Origin: an uncultured virus (IMG/VR IMGVR_UViG_3300037418_002259)
Lineage: Duplodnaviria > Heunggongvirae > Uroviricota > Caudoviricetes
Strand: one strand, 5' to 3'
IMG/VR virus record: IMGVR_UViG_3300037418_002259
DNA: 64,000 nt
Position 1 is the stretch's first letter. Each line of letters opens with the position of its first letter. Below are positions 33,713 through 60,400 of the stretch, one piece after another. The translations under genes were made by a program, and so were the position numbers. The notes beneath the pieces were generated by a model, which was not told the DNA's origin, made no database searches, and was given only the letters and a program-made list of their open reading frames with translations.

Positions 33713-33752
33713 CGGGCTACGCGACCAACCATGTCGGGATGAGCACCCCGGC
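33699..33752 (+). promoter_or_regulatory. class-A promoter plus ATGAGCAC-loop hairpin (recT)
   Basis: CGCCGCGACGTTAA-N14-AACCAT; hairpin at 33733-52. Confidence 0.65.
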
Positions 33753-33771
33753 GCTAGGAGACGAACACGAG

Positions 33772-35214
33772 ATGACAGTTACCGACGCCGACGTCGTGCA
33801 GGGTGAGATCACCACCCAGGACGAGGCACTGCAGCAAGCCCTCGACGAGGCCACGCTCGACGGCACCAAGCCCACCGAGTTGATCCATATCGAGTCTCGA
33901 TCCGGCAAGGGTCTGCTCACGATCGACCCGAACCAGACCGACTGGACGCCCGCACAGCGTACCTCGCTGAAGTCGATCGGAATCGAGACCGAGGGCAACG
34001 ACGCCGTCCCGATCCCCAACGTGCTCCAGTTTCTGCACATCTGCCAGATCCGGGACCTCGACCCGTTCCTGCGCGAGGCGTACCTGATCGTTCACGGGAA
34101 GATCAACGTCGGCTCGAACGGCAAGGTCTACGACGACCGCAAGTTCACCCTCGTGGTTGGCATCGACGGCTTCCGGAAGCGCGGCGAGGACACCGGCGAA
34201 TACGCCGGCCAGGTCGGGCCGGAGTGGTGCGGCGAGGACATGGTCTGGAAGAGCGCATGGAACCCGAAGTGGGGCGCGCCAGTCATGGCCCGTGTCGGGA
34301 TCATGCGCAAAGGCTTCGACGTACCGGTCTGGGGCGTCGCCGCGTTCGAAGAGTTCGTGCCGATGGTGCCCAAGTACGAGGGCCGGGGGGAGAACCGGCG
34401 CAAGGTCGGGATGACGCCCACCGACATGTGGCTGAAGATGCCAGCCAACCAGATCGCCAAGTGTGCCGAGGCCCAGGCCTTCCGCAAGACGTTCCCCCGC
34501 CAAATGTCCGGGATGTACGAGCCCGCCGAGATGCAGCGCGCCGAGACGGAGTACCAGCAGCAGCAGATCGACGCGCGCAACGAACAGTCGCGGCAGGTCC
34601 GGATGGCGGCGTACGCCGCCGCGCAGGCAGGTCAGGTTCCTGTGCCTGGCGAGGTTGTCGAAGGCGCGGCGCGCGCCCCGGAGCAGCCGGTTCCGGACGC
34701 GCGCGCGGGCGAGCCTGTCCCGGCTGGTCAGGCAGTGCGCGAGACGGTCGAGCAGATGCGCGCCGGGACGCGCGCGCCGCGAGGTGCCACGCGCGCGCCG
34801 GCGAGCGCGGTTGGAAGCGCGCCGAGCGCGCCGGATGACGCGCAGCGGCTCGACTGGGCGCGCGCGGAAGCGCAGTTCCAGGCCGGCCTGTTCGGTAAGA
34901 CCTTAGATGAGTTCTTCGCGCGTCAGAGCACGGTCCTCAAGAAGCTGCCGGGCGAATTCACCGCTGACGAACTGCTCCGGTCGATCCTGCCGCTGCGCGC
35001 GGCGGCGGTGGAGAAGCTGCGCAAGATCGGGCGCGGGGACGAGGCGGCGGCGTACGAGACGGTCCCGTCCGGCGCGCTCATGCCGCTCGACATGCTGGTC
35101 GGCACGCGCGCCGTCGTCGAGGTCGACCCGACCACGCCGCACGAGTACGCCGACCAGGGCGGCGTGTGCGAGCACTGCGGGCGGGAAGAGGGCGAGTCGA
35201 TCCACCCGGTCTGA
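33772..35214 (+). CDS. RecT/Bet-family single-strand annealing protein
   Basis: LDPF.RE.Y, VGIDGFR, W.KMP..QIAKCAEAQAFRK.FP...G.Y...EM motifs. Confidence 0.88.
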   Translation: MTVTDADVVQGEITTQDEALQQALDEATLDGTKPTELIHIESRSGKGLLTIDPNQTDWTPAQRTSLKSIGIETEGNDAVPIPNVLQFLHICQIRDLDPFLREAYLIVHGKINVGSNGKVYDDRKFTLVVGIDGFRKRGEDTGEYAGQVGPEWCGEDMVWKSAWNPKWGAPVMARVGIMRKGFDVPVWGVAAFEEFVPMVPKYEGRGENRRKVGMTPTDMWLKMPANQIAKCAEAQAFRKTFPRQMSGMYEPAEMQRAETEYQQQQIDARNEQSRQVRMAAYAAAQAGQVPVPGEVVEGAARAPEQPVPDARAGEPVPAGQAVRETVEQMRAGTRAPRGATRAPASAVGSAPSAPDDAQRLDWARAEAQFQAGLFGKTLDEFFARQSTVLKKLPGEFTADELLRSILPLRAAAVEKLRKIGRGDEAAAYETVPSGALMPLDMLVGTRAVVEVDPTTPHEYADQGGVCEHCGREEGESIHPV

Positions 35215-35232
35215 CCGGCTCAGGAAACACCT

Positions 35233-35265
35233 CGGCCCGGCACTCCCCTGCGGAGTGCCGGGCCG
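35233..35265. terminator. hairpin between convergent genes
   Basis: 14-bp inverted repeat cggcccggcactcc/ggagtgccgggccg. Confidence 0.7.
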
Positions 35266-35289
35266 GCTCTTGTGTGTGGTTGCCGGGAT

Positions 35290-35799
35290 CTATCCGGCGA
35301 GGCCGTCGCTGACGAGGCGCAGCGTCGGCTTGGGAGCGTTCTGGTCGCGGTGGCGGTCGCACCAGGCGTCCAGCTCGGCCGCGGTCTCGCGGATCTCCGC
35401 TTCGGTGAGCGGTACGTCGGCCATCAGGTGGGCCATCTCGATGGTGTCGGTGTCGTGCGGTGAGCCGCCGTTCAACAGCGCTAGCCACTCCTGCTCGATG
35501 GGCTCGTAGTGCTCTCGCACCCATTGCTCGCTATAGCCGTGAGCGTGGGCGATCTGCTGCCATGAATGGCCCAGCGCCCTTTCCAGGAGGACTGCGCGTA
35601 CCAATAGCTCGACTGCCATTTTGCGGACGCGTCTGGCCTGGGTGATGAACTCACCAGGCGGCCTTAGTTTGTCGCCGGTGGTAGGCACGACAGCGGCTGT
35701 GTAGTCGCTGATCTCGACAGATGCCAGCGCGTACCCCAGGCGAGCTGCCGCGTGCTGCGAAAGCGGTCTCTCAGACGTCGTCGGATCCTCAGTAGTCAT
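35290..35799 (-). CDS. hypothetical protein, possible HTH (G.SW..IA...G.S) segment
   Basis: Open frame; atypical codon usage; start uncertain. Confidence 0.55.
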   Translation of the reverse strand: MTTEDPTTSERPLSQHAAARLGYALASVEISDYTAAVVPTTGDKLRPPGEFITQARRVRKMAVELLVRAVLLERALGHSWQQIAHAHGYSEQWVREHYEPIEQEWLALLNGGSPHDTDTIEMAHLMADVPLTEAEIRETAAELDAWCDRHRDQNAPKPTLRLVSDGLAG

Positions 35800-36182
35800 T
35801 GGGCTTCCCGGGGTTTGGGGGCTGCCGCTTAAGACTTGCGGATGCGTGGGCTGCATTGAGTCGCCGGCACGCAGGTGGCGCAGGTTGTCTAAGGTCATGG
35901 AGTCCATTTCCGGTGCTGCTGTGGGGTGCTGCGGGGTGCATTGTTGCGCACCTGAAATGGTCGCCGATGGTAGGGGGTATCGAACAGGCCGTTAACTCCG
36001 GGACTAGTCCGGATAGCTCCGGCCCAGGTGCGCATTCATCCATCTCGGGCTCCCCTCTCCGAATGGAATTGCTCCGAGGCTAGCCGTCGATCGGTGGACC
36101 GGTCGAGCGGCGTCGCCGAACCTTCACACTTCTCCCAGTCTCGCACATCGTGTTGCGCGCCGCGCGCGGCACGATGTAGGCT

Positions 36183-36281
36183 GCGTATACGGGCTTAGCG
36201 TTCGCTCGACGCGACGTTAAGCACACACCAGTCCTACGGTCCCCCAATGGACCCCCGGACGACCCGCGGACGAGCACCCGC
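36183..36281 (+). promoter_or_regulatory. inverted class-B site, class-A promoter and ACGAGCAC hairpin (replication operon)
   Basis: B site 36183-200 (minus); A motif 36207-20 with TACGGT; hairpin 36266-81. Confidence 0.7.
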
Positions 36282-36332
36282 ACAGAGGAGACACCACATG
36301 CACAGCAGCAGCACTACCCCGGCCCGGCCTCG

Positions 36333-37745
36333 ATGACCGGGCACTTCACCCAGCAGGCGCGGCGGATCGTTGCCGCCGGCATCCCGTACGGGCCCCGCAC
36401 CAACCCCTGCGCCTGCGGCGACGGTCAGTACGCCCACGCGGGGAAGAAGGGCACCGGACGGTGCAGAGCGGTCCGCACCGTCGACGGCGACCCCGTCCCC
36501 TGTGGCTGCACCCGGTACCGTGTCGACCCCGCCTGGGATCTGGCCTACACCGCGATCGACGCAGCCAACACCAGCCTCGGCCACTCGCTGCGGAGCTACG
36601 ACCAGCAGCAGCGCGAGAAGCACTACCAGAAGAACCCGCGCCGCGAGGGCCAGTGGTCGCTCGGCCCGTCCGACGCCGGGACCTGCCGCCGCGCGATCTG
36701 GTACCGAAACCTCCCGCCCGAGGACCTGGTCCTCGACCCCACAGACGGCCGCGAGGCCCGCATGGGCGAGATCATCCACACCGAGGTCGAGCGGAGGCTG
36801 CGGGAGATGTACCCGTGGCGCGAGTACGAGGTCCCCGTCCAGCTTCCCGGGCTCGACCGCGACGCCCGCCCGGACTGGTATGACCCGATCACGGCCGAGA
36901 TCGAGGACCTGAAGACCGCTGGCGACTGGCGCTGGGATCAGGTCGACGACTTCGGCGTCTCCGAGGACGTGTGGAAGCAGGTCTTCCTGTACGGCCTCGC
37001 GAAGCACCGCCAGGGATACCCGGTCGAGACGATCCGCGTGACGTACCTGAAGCGCTGCAACGGCCACGACCAGACGTTCGTCGAGGACTTCGACCTGGAT
37101 CTGGCCGAGAAGTACCTCAACGAACTCCTGTCGATCGCTCAGGCGCTCGACATCGTGCACGCCGCCGACATGGACGACCCGGGCGAACTGCTGCCGCGGG
37201 ACCGGTCCGGGCCGTCGACGGATCCGCTGTGCAAGCGGTGCCCGTTCCGCAGCCACTGCTGGAACCTCGCGCAGGCGAAGGAGTCGCCGCGCTGGAACCT
37301 GGTCCGGTTGGGCGACGAACGCTCGGGGGAGTCGTACACGATCCTCGGCCCGGAACCAGTCGACGAGAACGTCGAGTGGGCGATTCAGCAGAACGTCGAG
37401 GCCAAGGCCCAGGCGCGTGACTGGGAGAAGGTCAAGGAAGAGACCAAGGCCCTGATCGAGGGACTGGAGCCGCGTCGCTACGGCGACCACAAGATCGATG
37501 AGCAGTGGTACGGCGGCGGCCCGGACTACAAGCAGGACTCCGCGAACCTGCGCCGGATGCTCGAAGCCGGAGAGATGCCCGACGTCGAAAACATGCCGAT
37601 CCCGACCCATCGCCATGTGCTCGTGCCGATCGCTCGCCGGATGCCGAAGTCCGTACTCGCCAAGGAAGAGCGCGAACGCAACAAGCAGCTCGCAGCCGCC
37701 GCGAAGGCTGCCGCCGCTGACCTGACAGAGGAGGCATCAGCATGA
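36333..37745 (+). CDS. Cas4-like PD-(D/E)XK exonuclease
   Basis: CRR..WY, G..IH, PD, DLKT, Q..LY and C..CPF...C (four Cys typical of an Fe-S staple). Confidence 0.8.
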   Translation: MTGHFTQQARRIVAAGIPYGPRTNPCACGDGQYAHAGKKGTGRCRAVRTVDGDPVPCGCTRYRVDPAWDLAYTAIDAANTSLGHSLRSYDQQQREKHYQKNPRREGQWSLGPSDAGTCRRAIWYRNLPPEDLVLDPTDGREARMGEIIHTEVERRLREMYPWREYEVPVQLPGLDRDARPDWYDPITAEIEDLKTAGDWRWDQVDDFGVSEDVWKQVFLYGLAKHRQGYPVETIRVTYLKRCNGHDQTFVEDFDLDLAEKYLNELLSIAQALDIVHAADMDDPGELLPRDRSGPSTDPLCKRCPFRSHCWNLAQAKESPRWNLVRLGDERSGESYTILGPEPVDENVEWAIQQNVEAKAQARDWEKVKEETKALIEGLEPRRYGDHKIDEQWYGGGPDYKQDSANLRRMLEAGEMPDVENMPIPTHRHVLVPIARRMPKSVLAKEERERNKQLAAAAKAAAADLTEEASA

Positions 37746-39097: not shown

Positions 39098-40119
39098 GCG
39101 GCGGCATGAGGAAGCGACACACACCGTTCGTCCAGATCGACTCCAAGAGCGTCAACAACCCGGACCTCTCGCTGCGTTCGATCGGTCTGTTGGCATGGCT
39201 ACTCGACAAGCCGGAAGGCTGGGACGTTCGCAGCGAAGCCATCACGAAGAAGACGAAGGAAGGCCGTGCGGCGATCCGGACGGCACTTCACGAGCTGGCC
39301 GCAGTCGGGCACTACCGCATCGAGCGGCGGCGGCTGCGGAACGGAAAGTTCGAGATGGGCACTGCGGTCTCGTACTACCCCGACCCGGACTGGGCCGCAC
39401 AGTACGCCGAATTCGACGGCAAGCCGGTCACGATGATCGAGCAGCAAGACGGCTCGTTCAAGGTGAAGCACAAGGACGGAACCCTCGCCGATGACGGCTT
39501 CGAGGAGGACGTTTTCGCAGGTCAGACCGAAGACCAGAAACCGGACTCCGGTTTTCCGGTCGCCGGTGAACCGGACTTCGGTGAACCGGATTCCGAAGAT
39601 CCGGAGTCCGGGCGCCCGTCTGCCATTAACAGAACACACACCGAAGACAGAGAGACAGAACCGACTTCATCGACAAGCGATGAAGTCGCGCCGGACTCCG
39701 AGCAGCCGACGCTGATCTCCGTTACCGGTGGCGCGAGTTCGACACGCGCCACCGACGGCCAGCAGCCGGAGGTGCCAACCGCCGAGACGATCGCCAAGGG
39801 CTGGTGGGACTACTACCAGGCGAACTACGGGCAGATCACCCGAGTCGGCACCGGGAGCCCCTTCGTCGCGCTCCGCGACAAGATCATCCAGCCCGCGCTC
39901 GACGGCGACTGGACGCCGGACGAGATCAAGTGGGCTCTGATGCGCCCGGCGACCGGCGACGGGATCCCCGACGCCGTACCCGACAAGCAGCGCTTCCAGC
40001 GCGCGCTCGCCGCCGTCCGCAAGGGCGCGCCCGCGCCCGGCCAGCAGCGCGCCGCAAGCAACGTTCACCACATGCCGGTCAACGACCCCGACCGGCAAGC
40101 GCGCGCAGGCGCGTTCTAG
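39094..40119 (+). CDS. replication initiator (HTH, lambda O-like organisation)
   Basis: F.QI....NPDLS.R.IGLL.WLL.KP.GW...EG..A.R.AL.EL motif; followed by a loader ATPase. Confidence 0.75.
   Translation: MSGGMRKRHTPFVQIDSKSVNNPDLSLRSIGLLAWLLDKPEGWDVRSEAITKKTKEGRAAIRTALHELAAVGHYRIERRRLRNGKFEMGTAVSYYPDPDWAAQYAEFDGKPVTMIEQQDGSFKVKHKDGTLADDGFEEDVFAGQTEDQKPDSGFPVAGEPDFGEPDSEDPESGRPSAINRTHTEDRETEPTSSTSDEVAPDSEQPTLISVTGGASSTRATDGQQPEVPTAETIAKGWWDYYQANYGQITRVGTGSPFVALRDKIIQPALDGDWTPDEIKWALMRPATGDGIPDAVPDKQRFQRALAAVRKGAPAPGQQRAASNVHHMPVNDPDRQARAGAF
39541..39660. repeat. putative replication origin: five CCGG-N3-YCGR units at exact 15-bp period plus an A-rich tract
   Basis: Units start at 39541, 39556, 39571, 39586 and 39601; A-rich tract at 39624-39660. 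Confidence 0.6.
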
Positions 40120-40138
40120 TCCCGAAGAGCAGCGGGAC
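40119..40138 (+). promoter_or_regulatory. AAGAGCAG-loop hairpin before the loader RBS
   Basis: gtcccg-AAGAGCAG-cgggac followed by AGGAGAC. Confidence 0.7.
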
Positions 40139-40155: not shown

Positions 40156-40878
40156 ATGTCAGCAGCACCCGTAGATCCACCGGAGGCCCCGCGCATCAAG
40201 CGCGCGGGCGCGTCCGATGTCGCGCGCCTTCTGCGCGGCATGCCGCCCGAGGCGCACGAGTGGGCGGCGCGCGCCAACTTCGATTTCGCCGACGCGGAGA
40301 CCCCCGAGGAGAAGCGCGCGCGCGTCGCGGACGCGCTTGCCGCGCGCGGGCGCAAGTGGGAGGCGCGCGTCCCGTCCAAGTTCCGCGACTCGCGCCTCGA
40401 CCGTCTCAGGCCCGAGCAGCACCCCGACAAGGTGCGCGCGTGGCTCGCGAGCGACAGCCCGACCCTGGTGCTCGCGTCCGGCATCACGGGCAACGGCAAG
40501 ACAGACGCCGCGTACGCGCTCGGATGGGCCGTGCACGAGGCCGGCCAGTGGGCCAGCGCGTGGACCATGGCCGACTTGAACGCCGCGCTCCGCCCGTCCG
40601 GCGAGCACGAGCCCGACGCCTGGCACACCGTGACCACGTGCGACCTCCTGATCATCGACGACCTCGGCACCGAGCGCCGTACCGACTGGACGGGGGAGCA
40701 GCTGCACCGGCTGTTCGACACCCGCGGCCGCGAGCGTCGCCGCACCGTGGTCACCACGAACCTGACCAGCGCGGAGGTCGAGGAACGGTACGACTCGCGT
40801 GTCGCCGACCGGCTCCTGGACGACTCGATGGCGATCCGCTTCACCGGCCAGTCGATGCGGAAGCCGCGCGCATGGTGA
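40156..40878 (+). CDS. DnaC/IstB-like AAA+ helicase loader
   Basis: GITGNGKT Walker A, LLIIDDLG Walker B, TTNL, RVADRL. Confidence 0.88.
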   Translation: MSAAPVDPPEAPRIKRAGASDVARLLRGMPPEAHEWAARANFDFADAETPEEKRARVADALAARGRKWEARVPSKFRDSRLDRLRPEQHPDKVRAWLASDSPTLVLASGITGNGKTDAAYALGWAVHEAGQWASAWTMADLNAALRPSGEHEPDAWHTVTTCDLLIIDDLGTERRTDWTGEQLHRLFDTRGRERRRTVVTTNLTSAEVEERYDSRVADRLLDDSMAIRFTGQSMRKPRAW

Positions 40879-41505: not shown

Positions 41506-42687
41506 ATGATCACTGAACTGCGCGACGGTGCACACCCTGTCAAGCTCTGGACCCAGGCGGACGACGTCGAGGACGTCGCCCTGGCCCAGCTCCGCAACAT
41601 CGCGAACCTGCCGTACATCCACAAGCACGTCGCGGTCATGCCCGACGTCCACTACGGCAAGGGCGCGACAGTCGGCAGCGTGATCGCGATGAAGGACGCG
41701 GTCTCGCCGGCCGCCGTCGGCGTCGACATCGGCTGCGGCATGGCCGCCGTACGCACCAACCTCACCAGCGCCGACCTCCCTGACGACCTCGGCGCGCTGC
41801 GGTCCGCGGTCGAGGCCGCTATCCCGGTCGGGTTCAACATGCACGACCGGCCGGTGGACTTCGAGCGGGGCAACCCTGGTGCACCCGGCACCGAGCACTG
41901 GTTCGCTATGGAGCGTCTGCACCCGAACGTCCAGAAGGACGCTGGCCGGGCCGCCCGCCAGGTCGGAACGCTTGGCTCGGGCAACCACTTCATCGAGCTG
42001 TGCCTCGACACGCAGGACAGGGTGTGGCTGATGCTGCACTCCGGCAGCCGGCACATCGGCAAGGTCATCGCCGACGCGCACATCAAGATCGCGAAGGAAC
42101 TCCCGCACAACGCCGACCTACCGGACCTCGACCTCGCGGTGTTCCTCGCAAACACCCCGGAGATGAAGGCGTACCGGCACGACCTCGACTGGGCGCAGCA
42201 GTACGCGATGAACAACCGCACCACCATGCTTCGCCTGTACAAGCAGGTGATGCGGCAGTTCTTCCCCACGTTCACGTCCGAGTTCGAGGTGAACGCCCAC
42301 CACAACTACGTCTCCGAAGAGAACCACTACGGCACGAACGTGCTCGTCACCCGCAAGGGCGCGATCTCCGCCGACGTAGGCCAGTACGGCATCATCCCCG
42401 GCTCGATGGGGACCCGGTCGTACATCGTGAAGGGACTCGGCAACCCTGAGTCGTTCCGGTCGGCCAGCCACGGAGCCGGCCGCCGCATGTCTCGCAACAA
42501 GGCGAAGAAGATGTTCACTGCCGACGACCTGGCCGAGCAGACCAAGGGCGTCGAGTGCCGCAAGGACGCGGGCGTGGTCGACGAGATCCCGGCCGCGTAC
42601 AAGGACATCGAGCAGGTCATGGCCAACCAGGCGGACTTGGTGACCGTCGAGGCGGAACTCCGCCAGGTCATGTGCGTGAAGGGCTGA
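41506..42687 (+). CDS. rtcB: RtcB RNA 3'-phosphate/5'-OH ligase
   Basis: MPDVH.G, VGVDIGCG, GSGNHFIE, HSGSR, HNY, HGAGR and terminal VKG. Confidence 0.95.
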   Translation: MITELRDGAHPVKLWTQADDVEDVALAQLRNIANLPYIHKHVAVMPDVHYGKGATVGSVIAMKDAVSPAAVGVDIGCGMAAVRTNLTSADLPDDLGALRSAVEAAIPVGFNMHDRPVDFERGNPGAPGTEHWFAMERLHPNVQKDAGRAARQVGTLGSGNHFIELCLDTQDRVWLMLHSGSRHIGKVIADAHIKIAKELPHNADLPDLDLAVFLANTPEMKAYRHDLDWAQQYAMNNRTTMLRLYKQVMRQFFPTFTSEFEVNAHHNYVSEENHYGTNVLVTRKGAISADVGQYGIIPGSMGTRSYIVKGLGNPESFRSASHGAGRRMSRNKAKKMFTADDLAEQTKGVECRKDAGVVDEIPAAYKDIEQVMANQADLVTVEAELRQVMCVKG

Positions 42688-42714: not shown

Positions 42715-42772
42715 CGCCGCGACGCTAACCACAACCACACAGCAGCATCAGGACCGGAAGAGCAGCCGGTCC
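42715..42772 (+). promoter_or_regulatory. class-A promoter plus AAGAGCAG hairpin
   Basis: CGCCGCGACGCTAA-N14-CAGCAT; hairpin at 42751-72. Confidence 0.65.
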
Positions 42773-42788: not shown

Positions 42789-42878
42789 ATGATCCACATC
42801 TACGCGCGCAGTGTCCGGGACTTCGTCCTGGAAGCCGCGCACGCCCTGGTCGAGATCGCCACCAGGTGGCCGCGGTGA
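42789..42878 (+). CDS. 29-aa peptide (not in the ORF track)
   Basis: Hairpin plus AGGAGAC RBS; GTGA coupling to the next gene. Confidence 0.55.
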   Translation: MIHIYARSVRDFVLEAAHALVEIATRWPR

Positions 42879-43474
42879 ACCGGTGCCGCGACTGCGGCGG
42901 CGGATTCCCCGGCGACGTACCCGACGATGAGGTCTGCGACTGCGGATCGCAGTGGGCGAAACCCCAACAGCCAAAGGGGTTACGGCGGAAGACGCCGCTC
43001 AAGCAGACCAGCGGGCTGAAGCGCGGCGGCCCGATGAAGCGGGGGAGCGGGCTGAAGCGCGGCGCGCCGATCGCCCGGACGCCGGCCGCCGCGAAGAAGG
43101 CCACCCCGAAGCGGGAACGGCCCGGCACAGACGACATTCCGCTGCCGGTACGGCGGATCGTGCTCGCCCGCTGCAAGGGCCGCTGCGAGGCGTGCGGCGA
43201 GGATCTCGGCGACGGACCGACCCACATGCACCACAGGAAGCGCCGTACCCGCCTGAACCACACCCCGGACAACATCGTCGCGCTGCACCCGACCTGCCAC
43301 GTCCTCGCGCCCCAGGCGGTCCACCAGCGGCCGACGTGGGCGCGCGAGCGCGGGCTGATCGTCCGCAGCGGGGCAGACCCGGCCACGACGCCGCTGCTGC
43401 TGGCCGATGGGCGCAGGGTGCTGCTCGATCCGGACGGGCCGACGTACCTGCCCGCGCCAGCCGTAGCCGCGTGA
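42875..43474 (+). CDS. HNH-like nuclease domain protein
   Basis: GRCEACG..HHRKRR...N...L..CH. Confidence 0.65.
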   Translation: MNRCRDCGGGFPGDVPDDEVCDCGSQWAKPQQPKGLRRKTPLKQTSGLKRGGPMKRGSGLKRGAPIARTPAAAKKATPKRERPGTDDIPLPVRRIVLARCKGRCEACGEDLGDGPTHMHHRKRRTRLNHTPDNIVALHPTCHVLAPQAVHQRPTWARERGLIVRSGADPATTPLLLADGRRVLLDPDGPTYLPAPAVAA

Positions 43475-44567: not shown

Positions 44568-45421
44568 CGTTCGCTCCCTGTGCTCGTAGGGCTGCTCGGT
44601 GGTAGACGCCGCTCGGGTACGGGCATCTGGTAGGTGATGACCTGCTTGTCCCCGGCCCAGATCTGCACGAGGACACGGACCCGGCGACCGGACTGGTCGA
44701 CGCCGACACGGGCGTGGCGACCGACCGGGGTGCCGGGCAGAAGGCCCATGACCGTGACCTCTTCGTCGGTCGGCATCTCGGCCTCGATGAAGTCGAGGAA
44801 CTGCACCTGGCGGAAGCCGAGCGCGTGGTAGATGCCGCCCGGCAGGGTGACGTCGTCGGGGGACAGGAGCGGCGCGACGCCGTCGACGGTCATCTCGGCG
44901 ATGTCGTACGGAGTCCAGGTGTCGGCGATCATCGCGAGCACCCAGTCGATTCCCTGGTCGGGGTTGGACACGTACCTGAGCCGGCGTCGCCGTACGACGT
45001 CCTGCCCGATCGGGATCTGGAGCCACTCGGCGACTTTCTTGGGTGCGGGGAGCACCTCGACGCCGTCGACGACTTGGCGGGGCACCCACCCGGCTGCCTC
45101 GACGCCCTGCTTCCACTGGTCGCGGCCCGCGGTCGGGTCGTCGGTGTACGCGCCCAGCTCGAACTTGGACATGGAGAACTCGATCCGGATCCGGTTGCGC
45201 ACGGTTCGGCCGCCGCGCCCGGGTCCGCTCGACGCGACCAGCCCGGCCTGTTCCAGTTCGCTCAACGCTCGCCGGACGGTGCCGCGCGACACGCCGTACT
45301 GCTCGACCAGTTCGGGCTCTGTCGGGACCCGGGAGCCCGGCGTCAGTACGTCGCGCTCGATCTGGTCCCGCAGGTCCTCGTAGATGGTCTGCCAGCGTGC
45401 ATCAGGCGTCACAGCGGTCAC
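44564..45421 (-). CDS. GntR/HutC-family repressor with UTRA domain (KorSA/KorA-like)
   Basis: wHTH P.E.EL...YGVSRGTVRRAL..L...GL; C-terminal UTRA-like domain; divergent from the transfer genes. Confidence 0.88.
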   Translation of the reverse strand: MTAVTPDARWQTIYEDLRDQIERDVLTPGSRVPTEPELVEQYGVSRGTVRRALSELEQAGLVASSGPGRGGRTVRNRIRIEFSMSKFELGAYTDDPTAGRDQWKQGVEAAGWVPRQVVDGVEVLPAPKKVAEWLQIPIGQDVVRRRRLRYVSNPDQGIDWVLAMIADTWTPYDIAEMTVDGVAPLLSPDDVTLPGGIYHALGFRQVQFLDFIEAEMPTDEEVTVMGLLPGTPVGRHARVGVDQSGRRVRVLVQIWAGDKQVITYQMPVPERRLPPSSPTSTGSER

Positions 45422-45489
45422 ATGTCCTCTCGATCCGTCCAGTTACGTCGAGACGTTACCGGGCTTAGGTCGGCACGTATCCCGTTCTC

Positions 45490-45560
45490 CGAGATCGTAC
45501 GTGACAAACGTCTGTACGTTCCGTACTGTCGTACATACGTTACACGCGCAACGCGTGTAG
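45490..45560. promoter_or_regulatory. divergent promoter region with GTAC-rich putative GntR operators
   Basis: AT-richer stretch with four GTAC copies (CGTACG, GTCTGTAC, GTACATAC). Confidence 0.5.
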
Positions 45561-45605
45561 TGACCATCGGTTAGGAAGGCGCGAGTCGCCGGGAAGGACG
45601 TCCAG

Positions 45606-45935: not shown

Positions 45936-45936
45936 T

Positions 45937-50281: not shown

Positions 50282-50358
50282 TGCCGGGTCGGGCACGATC
50301 CGGGGACACGCCGAAACAGCGCGCCGCGCGTCACGCGATGAGCCGTTACGGTGACGGA

Positions 50359-50607
50359 ATGACTCCACCGAAAGACGAAGCGGCGATCGCTTCGGCCAGG
50401 GCCGACGCCCTGGCCGAGATCGACCAGATCGAGAAGGCCGAGAAGGTCGTCGGCCGCCACCGCGCCGCCCGCGACGCAGCCATCCACAAGATGAACAAGG
50501 CCGGCCGCTCCGTCCCCGACATCAGCCGCGACCTCAAACTCCCGGCCAGCACCATCCGCCAGGCGATCAAGAACCACATCGTTCGCTCGGCTGCCGGCCA
50601 AAGCTGA
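50359..50607 (+). CDS. small HTH protein
   Basis: RDAAI......G.SV.DISR.LKL..STIR; start uncertain. Confidence 0.6.
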   Translation: MTPPKDEAAIASARADALAEIDQIEKAEKVVGRHRAARDAAIHKMNKAGRSVPDISRDLKLPASTIRQAIKNHIVRSAAGQS

Positions 50608-50634
50608 CGACCGACACGACGTCAGGAGACCCCG

Positions 50635-52035
50635 ATGAACGCCCTCAACCAGTGGGCCAACGACAACCTGGTGCTGATCATTGTCGGCGCAGTCGTCGTG
50701 CTGGCCGCCGTAATCCTGGTCGCCCGAGCACTACTCCGCGCGCGCGCCGTCCGCGGTGGGATGACCGCCGAGCAGCGTGACCGCCGGCACCGCCGCATCG
50801 AGGATGCGCTCACCATCGCGGTGGCCGCGGTCGCCTCCGGCCTGTCGATGACCGGGCTCTGGTTCTACGCCCAAGACGTCCTGCACCTGACCGGGCCGTG
50901 GCGCGTGCTGCCGTACTTCGGCCTCGACGCAGCGGTCATCGTCTGCGCGATCCGCGCCCGCCGCCGAGCCCGCAACAACGAGGCTGCCGGCTGGAACGGT
51001 CGGCTCGTCTGGATCTTCGCCGTCATCTCGGCAGTGTTCGGATTCTCCGAGGGCGGATCGCTGTGGGGCGGGTTCGGCCGCGCCGTATGGCCGCTCATCG
51101 CCGCGACCCTGTTCGAGCTGGGTCTGATCGAGCAGCGCCACGCCGCACAGCGCAGCACCGAGCGCCGACTCAACCTCGGGTGGGCGCACCCCATCGAGCG
51201 GCTCCGCGTGTACTCCGCACTGTCTGCTGACTCGACCCTGACCGCCGACGAGGCCACGCGCCACGTGCGCGCCAACGCGGCCGCCCGCGCGCTGTACCGG
51301 CTCCGGCACGCCGACGAGGCCGCCGCCCGGGGCAGGTGGTTCGCGCCGGTGCGCAAGCGCCGCACCGAGCGCCGCACTCAGCGCGTGCTGCTGCGCGCGC
51401 GGTTCTCGGATCCCCAGATGGCTGCAGAGGTCATGCAGCGGATGCAGTCGCTCGTGCGGACCCTCGACTTCGCGCGGATGGACTACACCGACCTGGACGC
51501 GGCGCGAGACATGATGGTCGCCTCGATCGACAACAGCGTGCTCCCCACGCACCACAAGCGGACGCGCCCACCGGTGCCGCGCCGGCCCGAGCCGAAGACC
51601 ACGCCCGCTCCGCCCACCGCAGAGGCGAGCAACACGCCGAAGCCTGCCGCGCCGACGACTCAGCCGGACGCGCACGCGACCGACCCGGCTCCCGCGCCGG
51701 AGCGCGCCGACGCCCCGACCGCGCGCGCCGCTGGCGACCAGGACGCGCGCAGCATCGAGGAGGTCGTCCGCGAGATCGCGCGCGAGATGATCGCCGAGGA
51801 CGACAGCGCGAAGCCGAACGGGACCGAGGTACGGCGGCGCGCAGGGCTGGATCGCAATGACAAGCCGGTCCCGCAGACCACGCGCGACTGGATCAAGAGC
51901 GAGTACGACGCGTATCTGGAAGCGCGCGAGGCGCGCGCCGATCTGCGCGCCGAGACGCACCTCGCCGACCCGGCCGAGGAAGACACCGACACCGATGGCG
52001 CGTCGCCGGCGCGCCATGTCAGGATCGCAGTCTGA
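50635..52035 (+). CDS. Spd-like membrane protein (plasmid spread)
   Basis: Several N-terminal TMs, Pro-rich linker, C-terminal domain; RBS AGGAGAC; next to traB. Confidence 0.6.
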   Translation: MNALNQWANDNLVLIIVGAVVVLAAVILVARALLRARAVRGGMTAEQRDRRHRRIEDALTIAVAAVASGLSMTGLWFYAQDVLHLTGPWRVLPYFGLDAAVIVCAIRARRRARNNEAAGWNGRLVWIFAVISAVFGFSEGGSLWGGFGRAVWPLIAATLFELGLIEQRHAAQRSTERRLNLGWAHPIERLRVYSALSADSTLTADEATRHVRANAAARALYRLRHADEAAARGRWFAPVRKRRTERRTQRVLLRARFSDPQMAAEVMQRMQSLVRTLDFARMDYTDLDAARDMMVASIDNSVLPTHHKRTRPPVPRRPEPKTTPAPPTAEASNTPKPAAPTTQPDAHATDPAPAPERADAPTARAAGDQDARSIEEVVREIAREMIAEDDSAKPNGTEVRRRAGLDRNDKPVPQTTRDWIKSEYDAYLEAREARADLRAETHLADPAEEDTDTDGASPARHVRIAV

Positions 52036-55404: not shown

Positions 55405-55447
55405 GCGTGCACACCCGCTTGCCTTCCACGCTAAGCGGGTATACGCT
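55405..55447 (+). promoter_or_regulatory. class-B promoter with imperfect upstream inverted copy
   Basis: TTGCCT-17-TACGCT with GCTAAGCGGGTA. Confidence 0.75.
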
Positions 55448-55456: not shown

Positions 55457-55581
55457 GGGAGCGCGGCAGCAAGCGGAGCGGTGAAACGCCCCGGGCGCTG
55501 ATGGCGGACAGCCTCACGGCAGTGAGGTCCGTTGGACGGCACGGAGGAATCCGAGCGAAGGTTCGAACCCTTCCGCTCCCC
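55457..55581 (+). ncRNA. tRNA-like RNA lacking an anticodon loop
   Basis: GGGAGCG/CGCTCCC acceptor stem, canonical T-arm GAAGG-TTCGAAC-CCTTC, D-like arm; directly downstream of a class-B promoter. Confidence 0.65.
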
Positions 55582-55631
55582 ACACCAAGCACCGGGAAGA
55601 GCAGCCCGGCCGGAGACACAGGAGACCCGAG

Positions 55632-55892
55632 ATGCCCGCAGCGATCCTCATCACCGTCGACCACCTCGACCCGTTCGCCACCGACTCGACCCCCGTCAAG
55701 GCGACCAGGCTCCGCGAGGGCATGGTGATCATGGACCCCGAACTCGGCACCCCGGCGCTGTGGCTCGACCACCGCACCCGCTCGACCCGCGGGTCCGGCA
55801 GCGTCTCGTGGTACGCCCACGACTTGGAGACCGGCCGGTTCGGCCCGCACACCTTCCACGAGAACCACCAGGTCAACGTCCTCGCGGACTGA
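55632..55892 (+). CDS. hypothetical protein
   Basis: Hairpin plus AGGAGAC RBS. Confidence 0.7.
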   Translation: MPAAILITVDHLDPFATDSTPVKATRLREGMVIMDPELGTPALWLDHRTRSTRGSGSVSWYAHDLETGRFGPHTFHENHQVNVLAD

Positions 55893-55894
55893 CC

Positions 55895-55948
55895 CGACGC
55901 GACACAACCGCACCACCCATCACACCGTGGCCGGAAGAGCAGCCGGCC
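55895..55948 (+). promoter_or_regulatory. degenerate class-A promoter plus AAGAGCAG hairpin
   Basis: CGACGCGACACAAC-N14-CACCGT; hairpin at 55929-48. Confidence 0.55.
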
Positions 55949-55964: not shown

Positions 55965-56375
55965 ATGGGCAACAACACGCCTGAAGGCACCTTCGACTAC
56001 GACGTCACCGAAGGCGGCGTACTCGTGTACTTCGGCCCGGAGAACGGGCTGGACCTGACCACCCCGAGCGAGAACCCGATCGAACAGCGGGCGAACGTCG
56101 AGCGCGTGATCCGCGTGCTGCGGATGTTCGCGGCAAACCCCGACTCGACCGGCGTCCTGGACCTGGTCGAGAACGCGCCCGAGCCCGCACTGTTGGAGGC
56201 GCTGGCCGCGAACGCAGACGAGGTCATCGCCGAGCTGGAGCGGTACGCACGCGAGATCGGCAAGCCGTGCCGCGCGTGCGGCGGCGAGGGCGGACAGGAG
56301 AGCGGGCGCGATGGGCTCGACTGGACGGTCTGCACCGCCTGCGCCGGCACCCGAGTTGGGGAGTCGGCGGCGTAG
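55965..56375 (+). CDS. hypothetical protein with CxxCxGxG zinc finger
   Basis: Hairpin plus RBS; CRACGGEG..CTACAG. Confidence 0.7.
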   Translation: MGNNTPEGTFDYDVTEGGVLVYFGPENGLDLTTPSENPIEQRANVERVIRVLRMFAANPDSTGVLDLVENAPEPALLEALAANADEVIAELERYAREIGKPCRACGGEGGQESGRDGLDWTVCTACAGTRVGESAA

Positions 56376-56602
56376 CACTCCCCCGACTGGACGCTGACTG
56401 GCGTCGCCTAGCAGCCTGTCCCTGACGGCAGACGGGGAGTCGACGCCCCAGCCGTTAGGGACAGGCCCGTACGGCGTCTGGTGGCATGGCCCTGGTGTGG
56501 CGCGTCGAGGGAAGTGCCTTTGGCCGTCCGCTCGATGTGCGGATGGGCGGACGACGTCCGTCTACATCGCCCGAGGCGCGCCACCCACGCCGGATCTGAA
56601 TT

Positions 56603-56677
56603 CGTATACCCGCTTAGCTTGCGCCATGACGCTAAGCGGGTATACGCTTGCGTCATCGGGTCGAAGAGCAGCGGCCC
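56603..56677 (+). promoter_or_regulatory. class-B promoter with perfect inverted operator pair plus hairpin
   Basis: CGTATACCCGCTTAGC-N12-GCTAAGCGGGTATACG; TTGCGC-18-TACGCT; hairpin at 56658-77. Confidence 0.8.
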
Positions 56678-56697: not shown

Positions 56698-57480
56698 ATG
56701 GACCTGACCACCGCCACCCCCGTCGAGATCGACACCAAACTGGCCGAGATCTCCGAAGAGGTCCGCAGCGCCCAGGTGATCGCAACGGCCGCATGGAACA
56801 GCGTCGTCCGAGCCGCCACCAAGTACGTCGGCAAGGAAGGCAAGTTCGAGCGGGTCGGCCGCAAGACGGTCGCGATGCGCGCCACCGACGAGGAGATCCA
56901 GACCGCGCTGGTCGAGGCCGCCGAGTTCGAGGGCCAAGACATCTGCGCGATGGAGACGGCGGAGCAGCGAGTCAAGGCGTGGAACGGGCTGGACCTGGTC
57001 GAGGCGCAAGTCAGGTTCGAGGAGGCTGCCGACAAGGTTGCCGCGATCAAGGTGACCGCGCTGCCGTACGACGCCGAGTTCACCCGGCGCGGCGGCTGGT
57101 CCCGGTTCTTCCTGGTGACCAGCTCCGACGGGCACATCCACTCATCGATGAACTGCTCGACCTGCAACCCGCGCACAACGTACGCCTGGTACCCCGAGTT
57201 CTCTGGCCAGACCATGGCCGAGGCGATCGCCGCCTGGGACGAGCGAGGCTCCGCCGAGGTCCTGTGCACCACCTGCTTCCCCGACGCCCCCACCCCGCGG
57301 ACACAGAAGCCGGTCGAGGACGGCGTGTGCCCCGGCTCTGGCACCTGGGACTACCCGGCCGAGACCGCCCGCAAGGGGTACGCCGCTGGAAACTACGGCG
57401 TCTGCCGCCACTGCGGCACCGCGATCACGATCAGCTCGACCGGCAAGATGCGGAAGCACAAGACCCCGAAGGCAGCCTGA
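56698..57480 (+). CDS. hypothetical Cys/His-rich phage protein
   Basis: Promoter, hairpin and RBS; GWSRFFLV...GHIH..M.CSTC, LCT.CFP.AP. Confidence 0.75.
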   Translation: MDLTTATPVEIDTKLAEISEEVRSAQVIATAAWNSVVRAATKYVGKEGKFERVGRKTVAMRATDEEIQTALVEAAEFEGQDICAMETAEQRVKAWNGLDLVEAQVRFEEAADKVAAIKVTALPYDAEFTRRGGWSRFFLVTSSDGHIHSSMNCSTCNPRTTYAWYPEFSGQTMAEAIAAWDERGSAEVLCTTCFPDAPTPRTQKPVEDGVCPGSGTWDYPAETARKGYAAGNYGVCRHCGTAITISSTGKMRKHKTPKAA

Positions 57481-57702: not shown

Positions 57703-57752
57703 CCACCACTCCCCCGCGACGAGCACCGCGACCACACAGGAGACTGAGCACC

Positions 57753-58160
57753 ATGACCGCACTGAAACTGTTCGCCGGCACCGCAGTCTGGGTCCCCAAC
57801 GCCTGGAAGCGGCGCGTGACGGACGGCCCGCACTCGCAGCTTGACGTCGTTATCGTGGCCGCTTCCAAGGCAGGAGCGATCGAACTGCTGACCGGGATCG
57901 GCGAGCATGACAGCGCGGCCCAGGCCATCGCCCGCGCCTGCAGGTGGCAGCGCGACCACATGAGCAATCCGGTCCGCGATCTGGTGGACGCGAAAGTCGT
58001 CGACATGGACCAGGCCGGGATCTACGTGTGGAAGCGGTACGCGAAGGACAACCCCGTCGCTCGCATCGACGCGCCCGGGATGCCGATCGTCGGCCACTTC
58101 CGCATCGCGAAGGGCGAGCGTGGCTCGTGGTCGATGTACGCCGAGAAGGTGTCGGCATGA
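57753..58160 (+). CDS. hypothetical protein
   Basis: Hairpin plus AGGAGAC RBS. Confidence 0.7.
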   Translation: MTALKLFAGTAVWVPNAWKRRVTDGPHSQLDVVIVAASKAGAIELLTGIGEHDSAAQAIARACRWQRDHMSNPVRDLVDAKVVDMDQAGIYVWKRYAKDNPVARIDAPGMPIVGHFRIAKGERGSWSMYAEKVSA

Positions 58161-58755: not shown

Positions 58756-58812
58756 TTGCGTGGAACGCTAAGCGGGTATACGCTCTTCCTTGTCGCCGGA
58801 AGAGCAGCCGGC
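58756..58812 (+). promoter_or_regulatory. class-B promoter plus hairpin
   Basis: TTGCGT-17-TACGCT; hairpin at 58795-812. Confidence 0.8.
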
Positions 58813-58830: not shown

Positions 58831-59391
58831 ATGAACGTCACCAGCACCTGCGCGATCCTCGCCTCCGACTTCTCGCCGTCGACCACTGACAAGCTCCGGC
58901 GCAACTGGTCGGTCGGCAAGATGGCTCACGTGATCGCCGCGCTCGATGGCGCGCCCGTGGCCATCACCACGGACCGCCAGACCGGGCACACCCTGGTCGG
59001 CGTCCAGCTGATCAGCGCCTTCCAGGGCGGCGCTGGTCGGGGCCCCCGCGTCCAGGTGCGCATGACGCACACGGACGGCACCACGCAGGACACCAACTAC
59101 TACCTGTGGAATGTCGGCGAGGCCATCATCCCGATGGAGCGCGCCGAGGGCTCTGACGCGAAGTGGAAGGCGCTCGAATCGTTCCGCAGGCAGTGCTCCG
59201 AGGCGATCAAGGCCGCGCAGGAAGAGCACGGCGAGAGCGAGGGCCGCGCCTGGGGATCGTGGGAAGCCACCCCGATCGACGCGACCTCGGTCGGCGTCCG
59301 CTACACCCCGAGCACCGGCAACCCCGCGTTCGCCGACCGGTGGGGTACCCGGTGGAGCGGCAATGTTCGCACCGAGGCAGTGACCGCCTGA
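58831..59391 (+). CDS. hypothetical protein
   Basis: Promoter, hairpin and GGGAGAC RBS. Confidence 0.7.
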   Translation: MNVTSTCAILASDFSPSTTDKLRRNWSVGKMAHVIAALDGAPVAITTDRQTGHTLVGVQLISAFQGGAGRGPRVQVRMTHTDGTTQDTNYYLWNVGEAIIPMERAEGSDAKWKALESFRRQCSEAIKAAQEEHGESEGRAWGSWEATPIDATSVGVRYTPSTGNPAFADRWGTRWSGNVRTEAVTA

Positions 59392-59403
59392 TCCCCCACC
59401 CCT

Positions 59404-59441: not shown

Positions 59442-59448
59442 GCGTGCT

Positions 59449-59482
59449 CGACGCGACGCTAAGCAGGCACCTGCCCGAGACT
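59449..59482 (+). promoter_or_regulatory. class-A promoter
   Basis: CGACGCGACGCTAA-N14-GAGACT. Confidence 0.7.
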
Positions 59483-59515
59483 CCGGAACGAACCACCTTC
59501 ACCCCGGAGGCCCCG

Positions 59516-60016
59516 ATGACAACCCACCAGACCCCGCCGAACGCCGCGACCACACCTGAGGTCTGGCGTGCCATGGTCAACGCGAACAACGACTCGGCCG
59601 CGACCGACCCGGTCGACTGGGTCGAGACGACCGCGCCGCACTACTCCCCGCGGGGCCGGCACCGGTGGCTGTGGCACCTCGCGATCCCCCTCGGCGAGGT
59701 CCGGCCCGGTGGCGGCGTACAGGAGATCACCGCCCGGTCCGGCACCGCGCTCACGCAAGCCGGCGCGAAACGCAAGATCGGCCGCCTGGCCAGCAGGCAC
59801 TTCGCCGAGGCAGCCGGACGCGACCCGCACGGCCCCATGCTCGACGCGGTACGGCACTGGTCGCTGTTCGCTCTGCTCGTCACCGGTGTCGCGCTGATCC
59901 TGATGACGGCAGGCTGCACCCCGTCGACGCTGGGCGTGCTGGTCATGGTCGCCGCGATCGTCGGCATCGCAGCGACGCTGGCGAAGTCGCACCGCGCCCA
60001 CACCCGCCGTACGTGA
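59516..60016 (+). CDS. membrane protein with two C-terminal TMs
   Basis: RBS GGAGG; class-A promoter upstream. Confidence 0.65.
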   Translation: MTTHQTPPNAATTPEVWRAMVNANNDSAATDPVDWVETTAPHYSPRGRHRWLWHLAIPLGEVRPGGGVQEITARSGTALTQAGAKRKIGRLASRHFAEAAGRDPHGPMLDAVRHWSLFALLVTGVALILMTAGCTPSTLGVLVMVAAIVGIAATLAKSHRAHTRRT

Positions 60017-60091
60017 ATGCAAAGCGTGTGTACAGCGCGGCGGGATCGGCCTACTGTGTAGAGGACAGCCCTACACGTAGGCAGGTGCACC

Positions 60092-60292
60092 GTGCCGAAG
60101 CTGATGACGACCGCCGACCTCCCCGCCACCTTCCGCGCCGACTTCACCAACCCGATCGCGCTGCGCGCCGTACGCGCCTCCAAGCTGCGTCTCGACCTGG
60201 AGCGCTGCGAGCACGGCCGCACCGACTGCCCGTCCTGCGTGATCGAGGCCGCCCGGCAACTGGTGGCCGACGCGGAGCAACCGGCAACCTGA
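60092..60292 (+). CDS. small hypothetical protein (CEHGR..CPSC)
   Basis: RBS AGGTG; followed by a terminator. Confidence 0.55.
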   Translation: MPKLMTTADLPATFRADFTNPIALRAVRASKLRLDLERCEHGRTDCPSCVIEAARQLVADAEQPAT

Positions 60293-60303
60293 CCCCTGCA
60301 ACA

Positions 60304-60340
60304 GAACGCCCCGCGATCCCTGGTGGATTGCGGGGCGTTC
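60304..60340 (+). terminator. hairpin terminator
   Basis: gaacgccccgcgatcc/ggattgcggggcgttc. Confidence 0.7.
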
Positions 60341-60343
60341 ATA

Positions 60344-60400
60344 TTGCCACCAATGCTAAGGGTGTGTACGCTCGTGTTGTGGTCGGAAGAGCAGCCGACC
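60344..60400 (+). promoter_or_regulatory. class-B promoter plus hairpin
   Basis: TTGCCA-17-TACGCT; hairpin at 60381-400. Confidence 0.8.

What the first reader, a model, noticed from the sequence alone, without database searches (positions are those of the whole stretch)
33733..60400. Eleven covarying ANGAGCAS-loop hairpins in front of ribosome-binding sites: a candidate post-transcriptional regulon
Seen: an 8-nt loop (AAGAGCAG x7, ACGAGCAC x3, ATGAGCAC x1) closed by a 4-7 bp stem at 33733, 36266, 40119, 42751, 44576 (minus), 55592, 55929, 56658, 57715, 58795 and 60381. Each lies within about 12 nt of a GGAG(AC) RBS. Stem sequences differ but keep pairing (gtcccg/cgggac, ggaccgg/ccggtcc, ggtcgg/ccgacc, ccct/aggg, and G-U pairs in gggtcg/cggccc and gtcggg/cccggc). 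Loop positions 2 and 8 also co-vary. I found none in the 33-kb virion module. Inference: an RNA element read by one RNA-binding protein or nuclease that coordinates replication, recombination and early genes, functionally analogous to lambda boxB or CsrA loops. I do not recognise it as a described motif.
Basis: partly seen in the sequence, partly recalled or inferred. Interest (0 to 1): 0.85.

Follow-up and report, generated by a model that had tools for sequence, protein, structure and literature searches.

The report
GAGCR-loop leader hairpins of actinophage-plasmids
This phage and its relatives, including the cultured Streptomyces phage Gilgamesh, put the same small RNA hairpin at the front of many of their non-virion messages; its GAGC(A/G) loop stays fixed while the stem changes freely, so it looks like an undescribed tag that one still unknown factor reads to control these messages together.

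Summary
The 11 hairpins are real. Stems covary (score 0.59 vs 0.16 shuffled, 0/500). All 10 sites picked by sequence alone carry a stem, and none of the 8 loop matches in the virion module does. The 44576 copy is doubtful.

The element is family-wide, with core GAGC(A/G) in a 6-9-nt loop. It occurs in Gilgamesh and 16 other related phage or phage-plasmid records, probably also in G013, and was not detected in 4. Promoters, spacers and RBS style turn over between lineages; the core does not.

It follows 84 of 105 host-type promoters, core a median 15 nt after the -10 box, so the stem starts near +1. It stays there when the start codon is ~135 nt away (7 of 7 genomes). Other copies are intercistronic. 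G-U outnumbers A-C 29 to 10, favouring RNA.

Best reading (0.4): a protein-read tag that protects early messages and keeps the RBS open. Rivals: translational operator, boxB-like antitermination, protein-free cassette part. No reader protein was found; no Rfam match. Undescribed in my searches.

The parts
33732..33753 (+). hairpin, loop ATGAGCAC, 7 bp, before recT (33772-35214)
   Evidence: recT orthologs in G026 and G027 also carry one
36266..36281 (+). hairpin, loop ACGAGCAC, 4 bp, before a 12-codon ORF (36298-36336) coupled to the PD-(D/E)XK exonuclease (36333-37745)
   Evidence: same hairpin plus short ORF arrangement seen by eye in G026, not in G027
40119..40138 (+). hairpin, loop AAGAGCAG, 6 bp, starting at the stop of the replication gene, before the DnaC/IstB-like ATPase (40156-40878)
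   Evidence: orthologs in G026 and G027 lack it
42751..42772 (+). hairpin, loop AAGAGCAG, 7 bp, before a 29-codon ORF (42789-42878) coupled to the HNH gene (42875-43474)
   Evidence: HNH ortholog in G026 has one
44576..44591 (-). doubtful copy, loop ACGAGCAC, 4 bp, inside the GntR 3' end, 3' arm overlapping the RBS of the GNAT gene (44567-43968)
55592..55609 (+). hairpin, loop AAGAGCAG, 5 bp, ~10 nt after a tRNA-like element, before gene 55632-55892
55929..55948 (+). intercistronic hairpin, loop AAGAGCAG, 6 bp, before gene 55965-56375
56658..56677 (+). promoter-proximal hairpin, loop AAGAGCAG, 6 bp, before gene 56698-57480
   Evidence: ortholog in G027 has promoter plus hairpin
57715..57730 (+). 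intercistronic hairpin, loop ACGAGCAC, 4 bp, before gene 57753-58160
58795..58812 (+). promoter-proximal hairpin, loop AAGAGCAG, 5 bp, before gene 58831-59391
   Evidence: ortholog in G026 has promoter plus hairpin
60381..60400 (+). promoter-proximal hairpin, loop AAGAGCAG, 6 bp, before a 49-aa, 20% Arg ORF (60421-60570)
56619..56648 (+). putative host SigA-type early promoter (TTG..., spacer with GCTAAG, -10 TACGCT)
   Evidence: inferred from sequence; the generic scan did not call it
58756..58784 (+). putative early promoter, same class
60344..60372 (+). putative early promoter, same class
55419..55447 (+). putative early promoter driving the tRNA-like element and the 55592 and 55929 hairpins
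33320..33349 (+). putative early promoter of the same class with no GAGCR hairpin at +1 (gene 33374-33712)

Best explanation
The hairpin is an RNA tag on non-virion (early) messages of a family of large actinobacterial phages and phage-plasmids. It forms at the 5' end of transcripts from the phage's host-type early promoters and again in front of some internal genes. A factor, most likely a protein, binds the GAGC(A/G) loop. The bound hairpin acts positively: it blocks 5'-end-dependent decay and leaves the A/C-rich spacer and SD downstream single-stranded for ribosomes. SHOWN: structure by covariation, sense-strand pairing, a conserved core, position near +1 by distance from the -10 box, restriction to phage non-virion regions. 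INFERRED: the transcription start sites, the existence of a reader, its identity, and the positive sign of the effect.
For: Covariation. G-U 29 vs A-C 10 inside stems of 155 sites selected by sequence, p=0.0017. 84 of 105 promoters in 11 genomes have the hairpin within 40 nt; -10-to-core median 15, IQR 14-16; first stem base 3-11 nt after the -10 box in 78 of 84. In the replication-operon leader it keeps that spacing with the start codon 134-137 nt away in 7 of 7 Streptomyces genomes; G019 has one copy at the leader's 5' side and a second before the RBS. The SD is not sequestered: stem end to SD median 9 nt, to start codon median 22, spacer 75% A+C, n=178. GAGC is kept while promoter spacers, downstream spacers and RBS style differ by lineage, which argues for selection on the loop. 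In a 10-Mb host chromosome the Gilgamesh-type pattern clusters in the prophage (7 of 13 rows within 42 kb). 5' hairpins, bound proteins or ribosomes stabilise downstream mRNA where RNase J acts (PMC3997798, passages).
Against: No candidate reader was found: no small non-virion protein is common to all hairpin-positive genomes by BLAST or profile; the two best HTH proteins have no informative fold match. A stabilising 5' hairpin needs no fixed loop, so stability alone does not explain GAGCR. 21 of 105 promoters lack a strict stem; in G010, 16 of 18 keep the GAGCG core but only 6 pass the 4-bp test. One of the 84 (window 55447) is probably a chance stem. A looser first G-U test showed no asymmetry (51 vs 53), and copies are not independent. 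The stem ends 16-28 nt from the start codon (10th-90th percentile), close enough for a bound protein to repress instead. In G017, G019 and G022 raw counts are not above control words; presence there rests on recurring spacers and orthologous positions seen by eye.
Confidence: 0.4

Rival explanations
1. Translational operator: a phage protein made later binds the loop and blocks 30S entry, shutting early genes off together (like T4 gene 43 or thrS operators, recalled).
For: Most copies end 16-28 nt before the start codon, at the edge of the ribosome footprint; core-to-start distance is 24-48 nt in 75 of 83 promoter-linked cases; none in the virion module.
Against: The replication-leader copy is conserved 134-137 nt from its start codon in 7 of 7 genomes. 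Spacing to the promoter is tighter than spacing to the start. The SD is outside the hairpin.
Confidence: 0.2
2. boxB/nut-like transcription signal: the hairpin on nascent RNA loads a factor on RNA polymerase so early operons are read through terminators.
For: Fixed position just after the promoter, independent of the RBS. GAGCA can be read as a GNRA-like loop with an inserted base, the kind bound by N peptides (PMC12550061, passages; the fit is my inference).
Against: 24 of 25 promoters in G026 and 11 of 11 in G027 carry it, and neighbouring copies are often 0.4-2 kb apart, which leaves little to antiterminate. Terminator-like sites near the window copies are at chance level (5 vs 4.6 and 6 vs 3.5). 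Internal copies always sit before an RBS. The one Arg-rich small ORF (60421-60570) has no homolog in the relatives held at that point.
Confidence: 0.17
3. Protein-free cassette part: an intrinsically stable loop on a 5' stem, spread and homogenised by recombination between promoter-leader cassettes, as with T4-type PeSLs.
For: Within each genome the spacers and RBS are near-identical between copies and lineage-specific, a sign of concerted evolution. No reader found. Orthologous genes gain or lose the hairpin (dnaC).
Against: The GAGC core outlives turnover of all flanking cassette sequence and appears in 6-, 7-, 8- and 9-nt loops with different closing bases, unlike a fixed stable tetraloop. 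Stems vary freely within a genome, so homogenisation does not act on them.
Confidence: 0.13
4. Endonuclease site: the loop is cut to separate or destroy early messages.
For: Intercistronic copies exist; the phage carries RtcB and a 2H phosphoesterase domain.
Against: Cutting a hairpin at +1 to +25 releases nothing useful. RtcB was not among the window proteins shared with relatives.
Confidence: 0.06
5. DNA-level element (non-template-strand hairpin or operator) acting at the promoter.
For: Tight spacing to the -10 box.
Against: Intercistronic copies lack promoters; stems vary in sequence but keep pairing; G-U bias on the sense strand.
Confidence: 0.04

Closest known systems
PeSL (promoter-early stem-loop) cassettes of T4-type phages RB49/phi1 (PMC2839356, passages; PMC4122927, part 1 of 3)
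   Same: Repeated host-type promoter + stem-loop + SD cassettes in front of small non-core genes.
   Different: PeSL stems lie mostly between -35 and -10 or over the -10 box and act as terminators; here the stem is downstream of the -10 box, has an invariant loop core, and also occurs without a promoter.
Start-associated sequences (SAS/ESAS) of Cluster K mycobacteriophages (PMC3203893, passages)
   Same: Repeated, oriented element just upstream of starts of many actinophage genes; reader unknown.
   Different: SAS is a 13-bp linear consensus (GGGATAGGAGCCC) that contains an SD-like AGGAG; the authors saw little support for hairpins in ESAS. Here the conserved part is a loop on a covarying stem, upstream of the SD.
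Lambdoid boxB hairpins (PMC12550061, passages)
   Same: Short hairpin, purine-rich loop of 5-6 nt read by a protein, early transcripts.
   Different: 2-3 nut sites per genome (recalled) versus 10 to more than 30 here; copies sit before RBSs; no N-like protein or read-through shown.
ANTAR-target RNAs of actinobacteria (PMC8164766, passages)
   Same: The Gilgamesh-type hexaloop AGAGCA has A1 and G4; near RBSs; actinobacterial.
   Different: Single hairpin, not a dual one; window loops are 8 nt and relatives 6-9 nt; first base can be C or T; SD not sequestered.
CsrA/RsmA binding hairpins (recalled; one example mentioned in PMC3997798)
   Same: Short hairpin sites in leaders of many genes; CsrA can also protect a 5' end.
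   Different: No GGA in the loop; site does not overlap the SD.

Membership tests
ANTAR-target RNA | two stem-loops 2-25 nt apart | tested here: not met
   By inspection: leader folds show one GAGCA hairpin; promoter copies start near +1 and are followed by an A/C-rich spacer.
ANTAR-target RNA | hexanucleotide loops with A1 and G4 | tested here: not met
   Window loops are 8 nt; the AGAGCA hexaloop makes up 48 of 125 loops in the family set.
ANTAR-target RNA | ANTAR-domain reader protein | tested here: inconclusive
   PF03861 in 0 of 5 records, but the control genomes were silent too; host proteins not tested.
lambdoid nut/boxB | hairpin downstream of an early promoter | tested here: met
   84 of 105 promoters.
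lambdoid nut/boxB | cognate Arg-rich N-type protein | tested here: inconclusive
   One 49-aa ORF with 20% Arg, no homologs in relatives held then, no Pfam or PHROG hit; such peptides diverge fast.
lambdoid nut/boxB | terminator read-through | not testable with these tools
   Terminator-like sites at chance level; needs transcript mapping.
lambdoid nut/boxB | adjacent boxA | not tested
   No search for an actinobacterial boxA was run.
CsrA/RsmA site | GGA in the loop, often overlapping the SD | tested here: not met
   Loop core GAGC(A/G); SD a median 9 nt past the stem. Feature recalled.
PeSL | repeated promoter + stem-loop + SD before non-core genes | tested here: met
PeSL | stem-loop within or over the promoter, acting as terminator | tested here: not met
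   Stem begins 3-11 nt after the -10 box in 78 of 84; terminator activity itself not tested.
PeSL | gene exchange by recombination at the cassette | not tested
   No pair of near-identical genomes was compared for crossovers.
Cluster K SAS | 13-bp consensus GGGATAGGAGCCC at the RBS | tested here: not met
   Only the 40125 copy is followed by a 2-mismatch look-alike; the other ten are not.
any Rfam 15 family | match at gathering score | tested here: not met
   0 in the window; only unrelated sub-threshold hits in window 54.5-61.5 kb, Gilgamesh 90-129 kb and G026 20-40 kb.

The most novel reading that the evidence does not exclude
The GAGCR hairpin is a 'self' badge: a phage-made factor recognises it on early phage messages and spares or favours them in decay and translation while unbadged host messages lose out, a bacterial counterpart of a protected viral leader, conserved across phage-plasmids of several actinomycete genera.
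Probability: 0.15. Interest if true: 0.88.

Novelty: new variant of a known kind. Interest (0 to 1): 0.64.

Why it matters
Sequence-specific RNA control of whole gene sets is poorly known in actinophages, where repeated start-associated elements have had no mechanism (PMC3203893). Here is a covariation-backed RNA element, 10 to more than 30 copies per genome, kept across a large family of ~110-135-kb phage-plasmids common in Streptomyces (48 or so genome contigs carry the family capsid). If a protein-hairpin pair stabilises or switches messages, it would be a new RNA regulator and a small portable expression part for Streptomyces engineering.

Tried and rejected
1. An exact window-type pattern in IMG/VR gave 23 loci, none with a repeated hairpin+RBS arrangement. 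RecT found no viral locus.
2. Blind loop scans wrongly called G019, G022, G023 and G013 negative because the RBS rule was too narrow; corrected. The presence/absence screen built on them cannot single out a factor. GMA6, G015 and G016 were judged only by those scans (GMA6), so 'not detected' is weak there. G014 stayed at control level.
3. A loop 4-mer scan was too noisy. A strict-stem test failed on G010 (p=0.4) and passed when bulges were allowed (p=3.6e-8).
4. First G-U test: 42 vs 8 was biased by selection; 51 vs 53 was diluted by chance sites. The cited test is.
5. Candidate readers. Window 35290-35799 (Gilgamesh gp78 family, weak HTH): model pLDDT 71, no clear fold match, found in only 1 of 5 further records. 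Gilgamesh gp155 family: pLDDT 92, no Foldseek or PDB-sequence match; probably a DNA-binding repressor. Neither is shown to bind RNA.
6. No RNA holder listed for a 10-kb stretch of G002; read laying was not run.
7. No covariance model was built; counts come from pattern plus stem rules.
8. ARAGORN finds no tRNA in the window; the tRNA-like element folds no better than shuffles, z -0.56.
9. blastn of two cassettes against GenBank phages gave full-length hits only in Gilgamesh itself.
10. Likenesses to SRP RNA, the tRNA D-arm and type IIS restriction sites (all recalled) were set aside: they do not explain the covarying stems.
11. Literature: 10 searches listed no description of this element; none held Gilgamesh with Streptomyces and phage. 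The two Weinberg motif papers were seen as listings only, and their supplements were not read; subscription papers are outside the library.
Full report
**Observation.** All 11 hairpins are present as described. ANGAGCAS occurs 28 times against 17.1 expected. None of the 8 matches in the virion module (1-33100) has one. Choosing sites by sequence alone (ANGAGCAS, then GGAGAC 6-22 nt on) returns 10 sites, all with stems. GAGCA words with an RBS and start downstream have a stem in 10 of 20 cases, others in 13 of 193 (p=2.7e-6). On the ungapped alignment, 6 of 7 pairs show two-sided changes and the covariation score is 0.590 against 0.155 (0/500). The minus-strand copy at 44576 is doubtful: 4 bp, inside a coding end, SD overlapping the stem.

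**The host element.** The window is part of a 68% GC actinobacterial phage: virion genes to ~33 kb, then RecT, exonuclease, WhiB, replication protein, DnaC-like ATPase, RtcB, HNH, a GntR/FtsK transfer-like block, an integrase and small unknown genes. No whole genome is held. Its capsid is 42% identical to Streptomyces phage Gilgamesh. A capsid profile found 51 genome contigs, nearly all titled Streptomyces, two Kitasatospora and one Streptosporangium, many of ~125 kb, and 57 viral loci; three ~125-130-kb Streptomyces plasmids share the replication protein.

**The element is family-wide.** A blind count of hairpin loops near RBSs ranked AGAGCA first in Gilgamesh (9 of 9 near an RBS). GAGCA was the top loop word near starts in all four genomes ranked (window, Gilgamesh, G002, G007). 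I read 22 other records whole or nearly whole. Seventeen carry the hairpin: Gilgamesh, G001-G005, G007-G010, G017, G019, G022-G024, G026, G027. G013 has four diverged look-alikes; G014, GMA6, G015 and G016 showed none (see Tried and rejected for the weakness of three of these). For G017, G019 and G022 the counts are not above control words, and presence rests on repeated spacers and orthologous positions. Loops differ by lineage: AGAGCA and AGAGCAA in the Gilgamesh group, ACGAGCRA in G019/G022, AGAGCGA in G010/G026/G027, A-NGAGCA-S here. The common core is GAGC(A/G). G026 has 39 hairpin+RBS hits, 33 with AGAGCGA. G026 and G027 are the closest relatives by gene content; their recT genes keep the hairpin, their dnaC genes do not. 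A metagenome scan for promoter plus core gave 90 loci, 12 with stem and RBS: four repeat G010/G025 sequence, two at 42% GC are doubtful, six are further cases. In one complete host chromosome the Gilgamesh-type pattern gave 13 rows, 7 of them within 42 kb of the prophage region; the rest, and those of four other genomes, were scattered. That pattern was tuned to one lineage.

**RNA, and where on it.** Among 155 distinct sites picked by flanking sequence, 107 have 5 or 6 Watson-Crick pairs in the first six positions, and internal mismatches are G-U 29 times and A-C 10 times; an earlier, looser selection showed no bias (51 vs 53). Each lineage has a repeated host-type promoter (TANNNT -10 box; here TTG-N-GCTAAG-N-TACGCT). 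Of 105 such promoters in 11 genomes, 84 have the hairpin within 40 nt; the core lies a median 15 nt after the -10 box and the stem begins 3-11 nt after it in 78 cases, that is at about +1 if the usual 6-7-nt gap holds (inference). One of the 84, at window 55447, is probably chance. In the replication-operon leader the hairpin keeps this spacing while the start codon is 134-137 nt away, in 7 of 7 genomes. Other copies are intercistronic. In the window three follow a promoter directly, one follows a tRNA-like element, three follow a second motif (GCGACNYTAA, 35-60 nt upstream), three are plainly internal and one is doubtful. The SD is never inside the stem in the ten good copies; across 178 sites the stem ends a median 9 nt before the SD and 22 nt before the start, with a 75% A+C spacer.

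**Mechanism.** A stem that varies freely under an invariant loop, kept while promoters and spacers turn over, is what a binding site looks like (inference). Two placements are selected, the 5' end and the approach to an RBS, and G019's replication leader has both. One activity that uses both is a bound hairpin that blocks 5'-end decay and keeps downstream RNA open; 5' hairpins and bound proteins are known stabilisers where RNase J acts (PMC3997798, passages). I put this at 0.4. A late translational repressor (0.2) fits the RBS distance but not the far leader copy. A boxB-like signal (0.17) fits the promoter spacing but not the near-saturation of promoters (24 of 25 in G026) or the RBS-linked internal copies. 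A protein-free cassette part (0.13) fits the lineage-specific flanks but not the survival of the core. G010 keeps the core at 16 of 18 promoters although only 6 have a clean stem, so the loop sequence seems to matter more than stem strength.

Proteins common to the window group and the Streptomyces group are virion, packaging and replication proteins. Two HTH proteins were followed. The gp78 family (window 35290-35799) is missing from 4 of 5 further records and has no clear fold match. The gp155 family is in all 14 Streptomyces/Kitasatospora records, G026, G027 and weakly G010, but not in hairpin-negative G014, and its own promoter is the one of its class without the hairpin in Gilgamesh, G002 and G007. 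It is more likely the promoter repressor: nearest named Atlas clusters are sigma70-r4-like HTH proteins (score 0.84, a lead only) and two promoter-spacer repeats precede it in G027; no fold match. It is not in the window, which is incomplete. A host reader is not excluded.

**Known systems.** No Rfam family matches. It fails ANTAR (single hairpin, 6-9-nt loops), CsrA (no GGA) and SAS (no 13-mer) tests. It shares the cassette layout of PeSLs but not their stem position or terminator role. Ten literature searches listed no description; subscription papers and the supplements of the Weinberg motif papers were not seen. Two earlier AI notes of this scan describe a GAGCG(A)-loop version in a Micromonospora element; they agree but are not independent support. 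This report adds that GAGCA and GAGCG are one family-wide element, that it is tied to the promoter as well as the RBS, and that a cultured phage carries it.

**Verdict.** Real, RNA-level with good odds, undescribed in the sources I could search, mechanism open. New variant of a known kind (protein-read mRNA hairpin in a promoter-leader cassette). Interest 0.64.

Noticed in passing
window 3561, 7003, 14952(-), 15525, 17439, 18282, 18403, 25412, 32187, 33703, 36211, 41112, 42719, 59453 (and a weaker match at 46127): Second oriented motif GCGACNYTAA, 15 copies vs 0 for the reversed control, mostly intergenic and before virion operons. Also 9 in Gilgamesh (before portal, capsid, tail, lysin genes), 7 in G026, 10 in G027, 6 in G010. 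Likely a late promoter box or a stoperator-like site; shares CTAA with the early-promoter spacer.
   Followed up: partly
window 55458-55582 (+): tRNA-like element under its own promoter: 7-bp acceptor-like stem and a T-arm with a TTCGAAC loop around ~90 nt of other hairpins. Not called by ARAGORN or Rfam; fold z -0.56. With RtcB in the window it could be a Y-RNA-like RNA (idea only).
   Followed up: partly
window 41506-42687 and 3630-6155: RtcB RNA ligase gene, and a prohead protease fused to a 2H phosphoesterase/2'-5' ligase domain; in G002 the same protease is fused to a NUDIX domain.
   Followed up: no
window 6166-6591: Acb2/Tad1-like anti-defence gene inside the head module.
   Followed up: no
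window 43968-52035: Plasmid-like block: GNAT, GntR/UTRA repressor, membrane proteins, FtsK/TraB-like ATPase, DUF2637, in line with a phage-plasmid lifestyle.
   Followed up: no
window 56601 (-) and 36182 (-): Two early-class promoters facing backwards with no gene start nearby; 56601 may drive an antisense or non-coding RNA over 56380-56600.
   Followed up: no
window 60628-60710: Long near-perfect hairpin (only a sub-threshold miRNA-precursor hit) between genes 60570 and 61022.
   Followed up: no
G010 32564-34249 (L190) and 41.9-55.4 kb (L191): TROVE/Ro60 gene behind a GAGCG hairpin and an array of 37 tRNA genes with hairpin-led ORFs in between.
   Followed up: partly
L026 37090-37180 (Gilgamesh gp155 leader) and orthologs: A different conserved leader hairpin (GGGG...CCCC stem) before the gp155 family gene in 14 genomes; possible autoregulatory element.
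   Followed up: no
L396, L448: Two 42% GC metagenome contigs with a promoter-like box, a GAGCA hairpin and an RBS; chance or an unrelated group.
   Followed up: no
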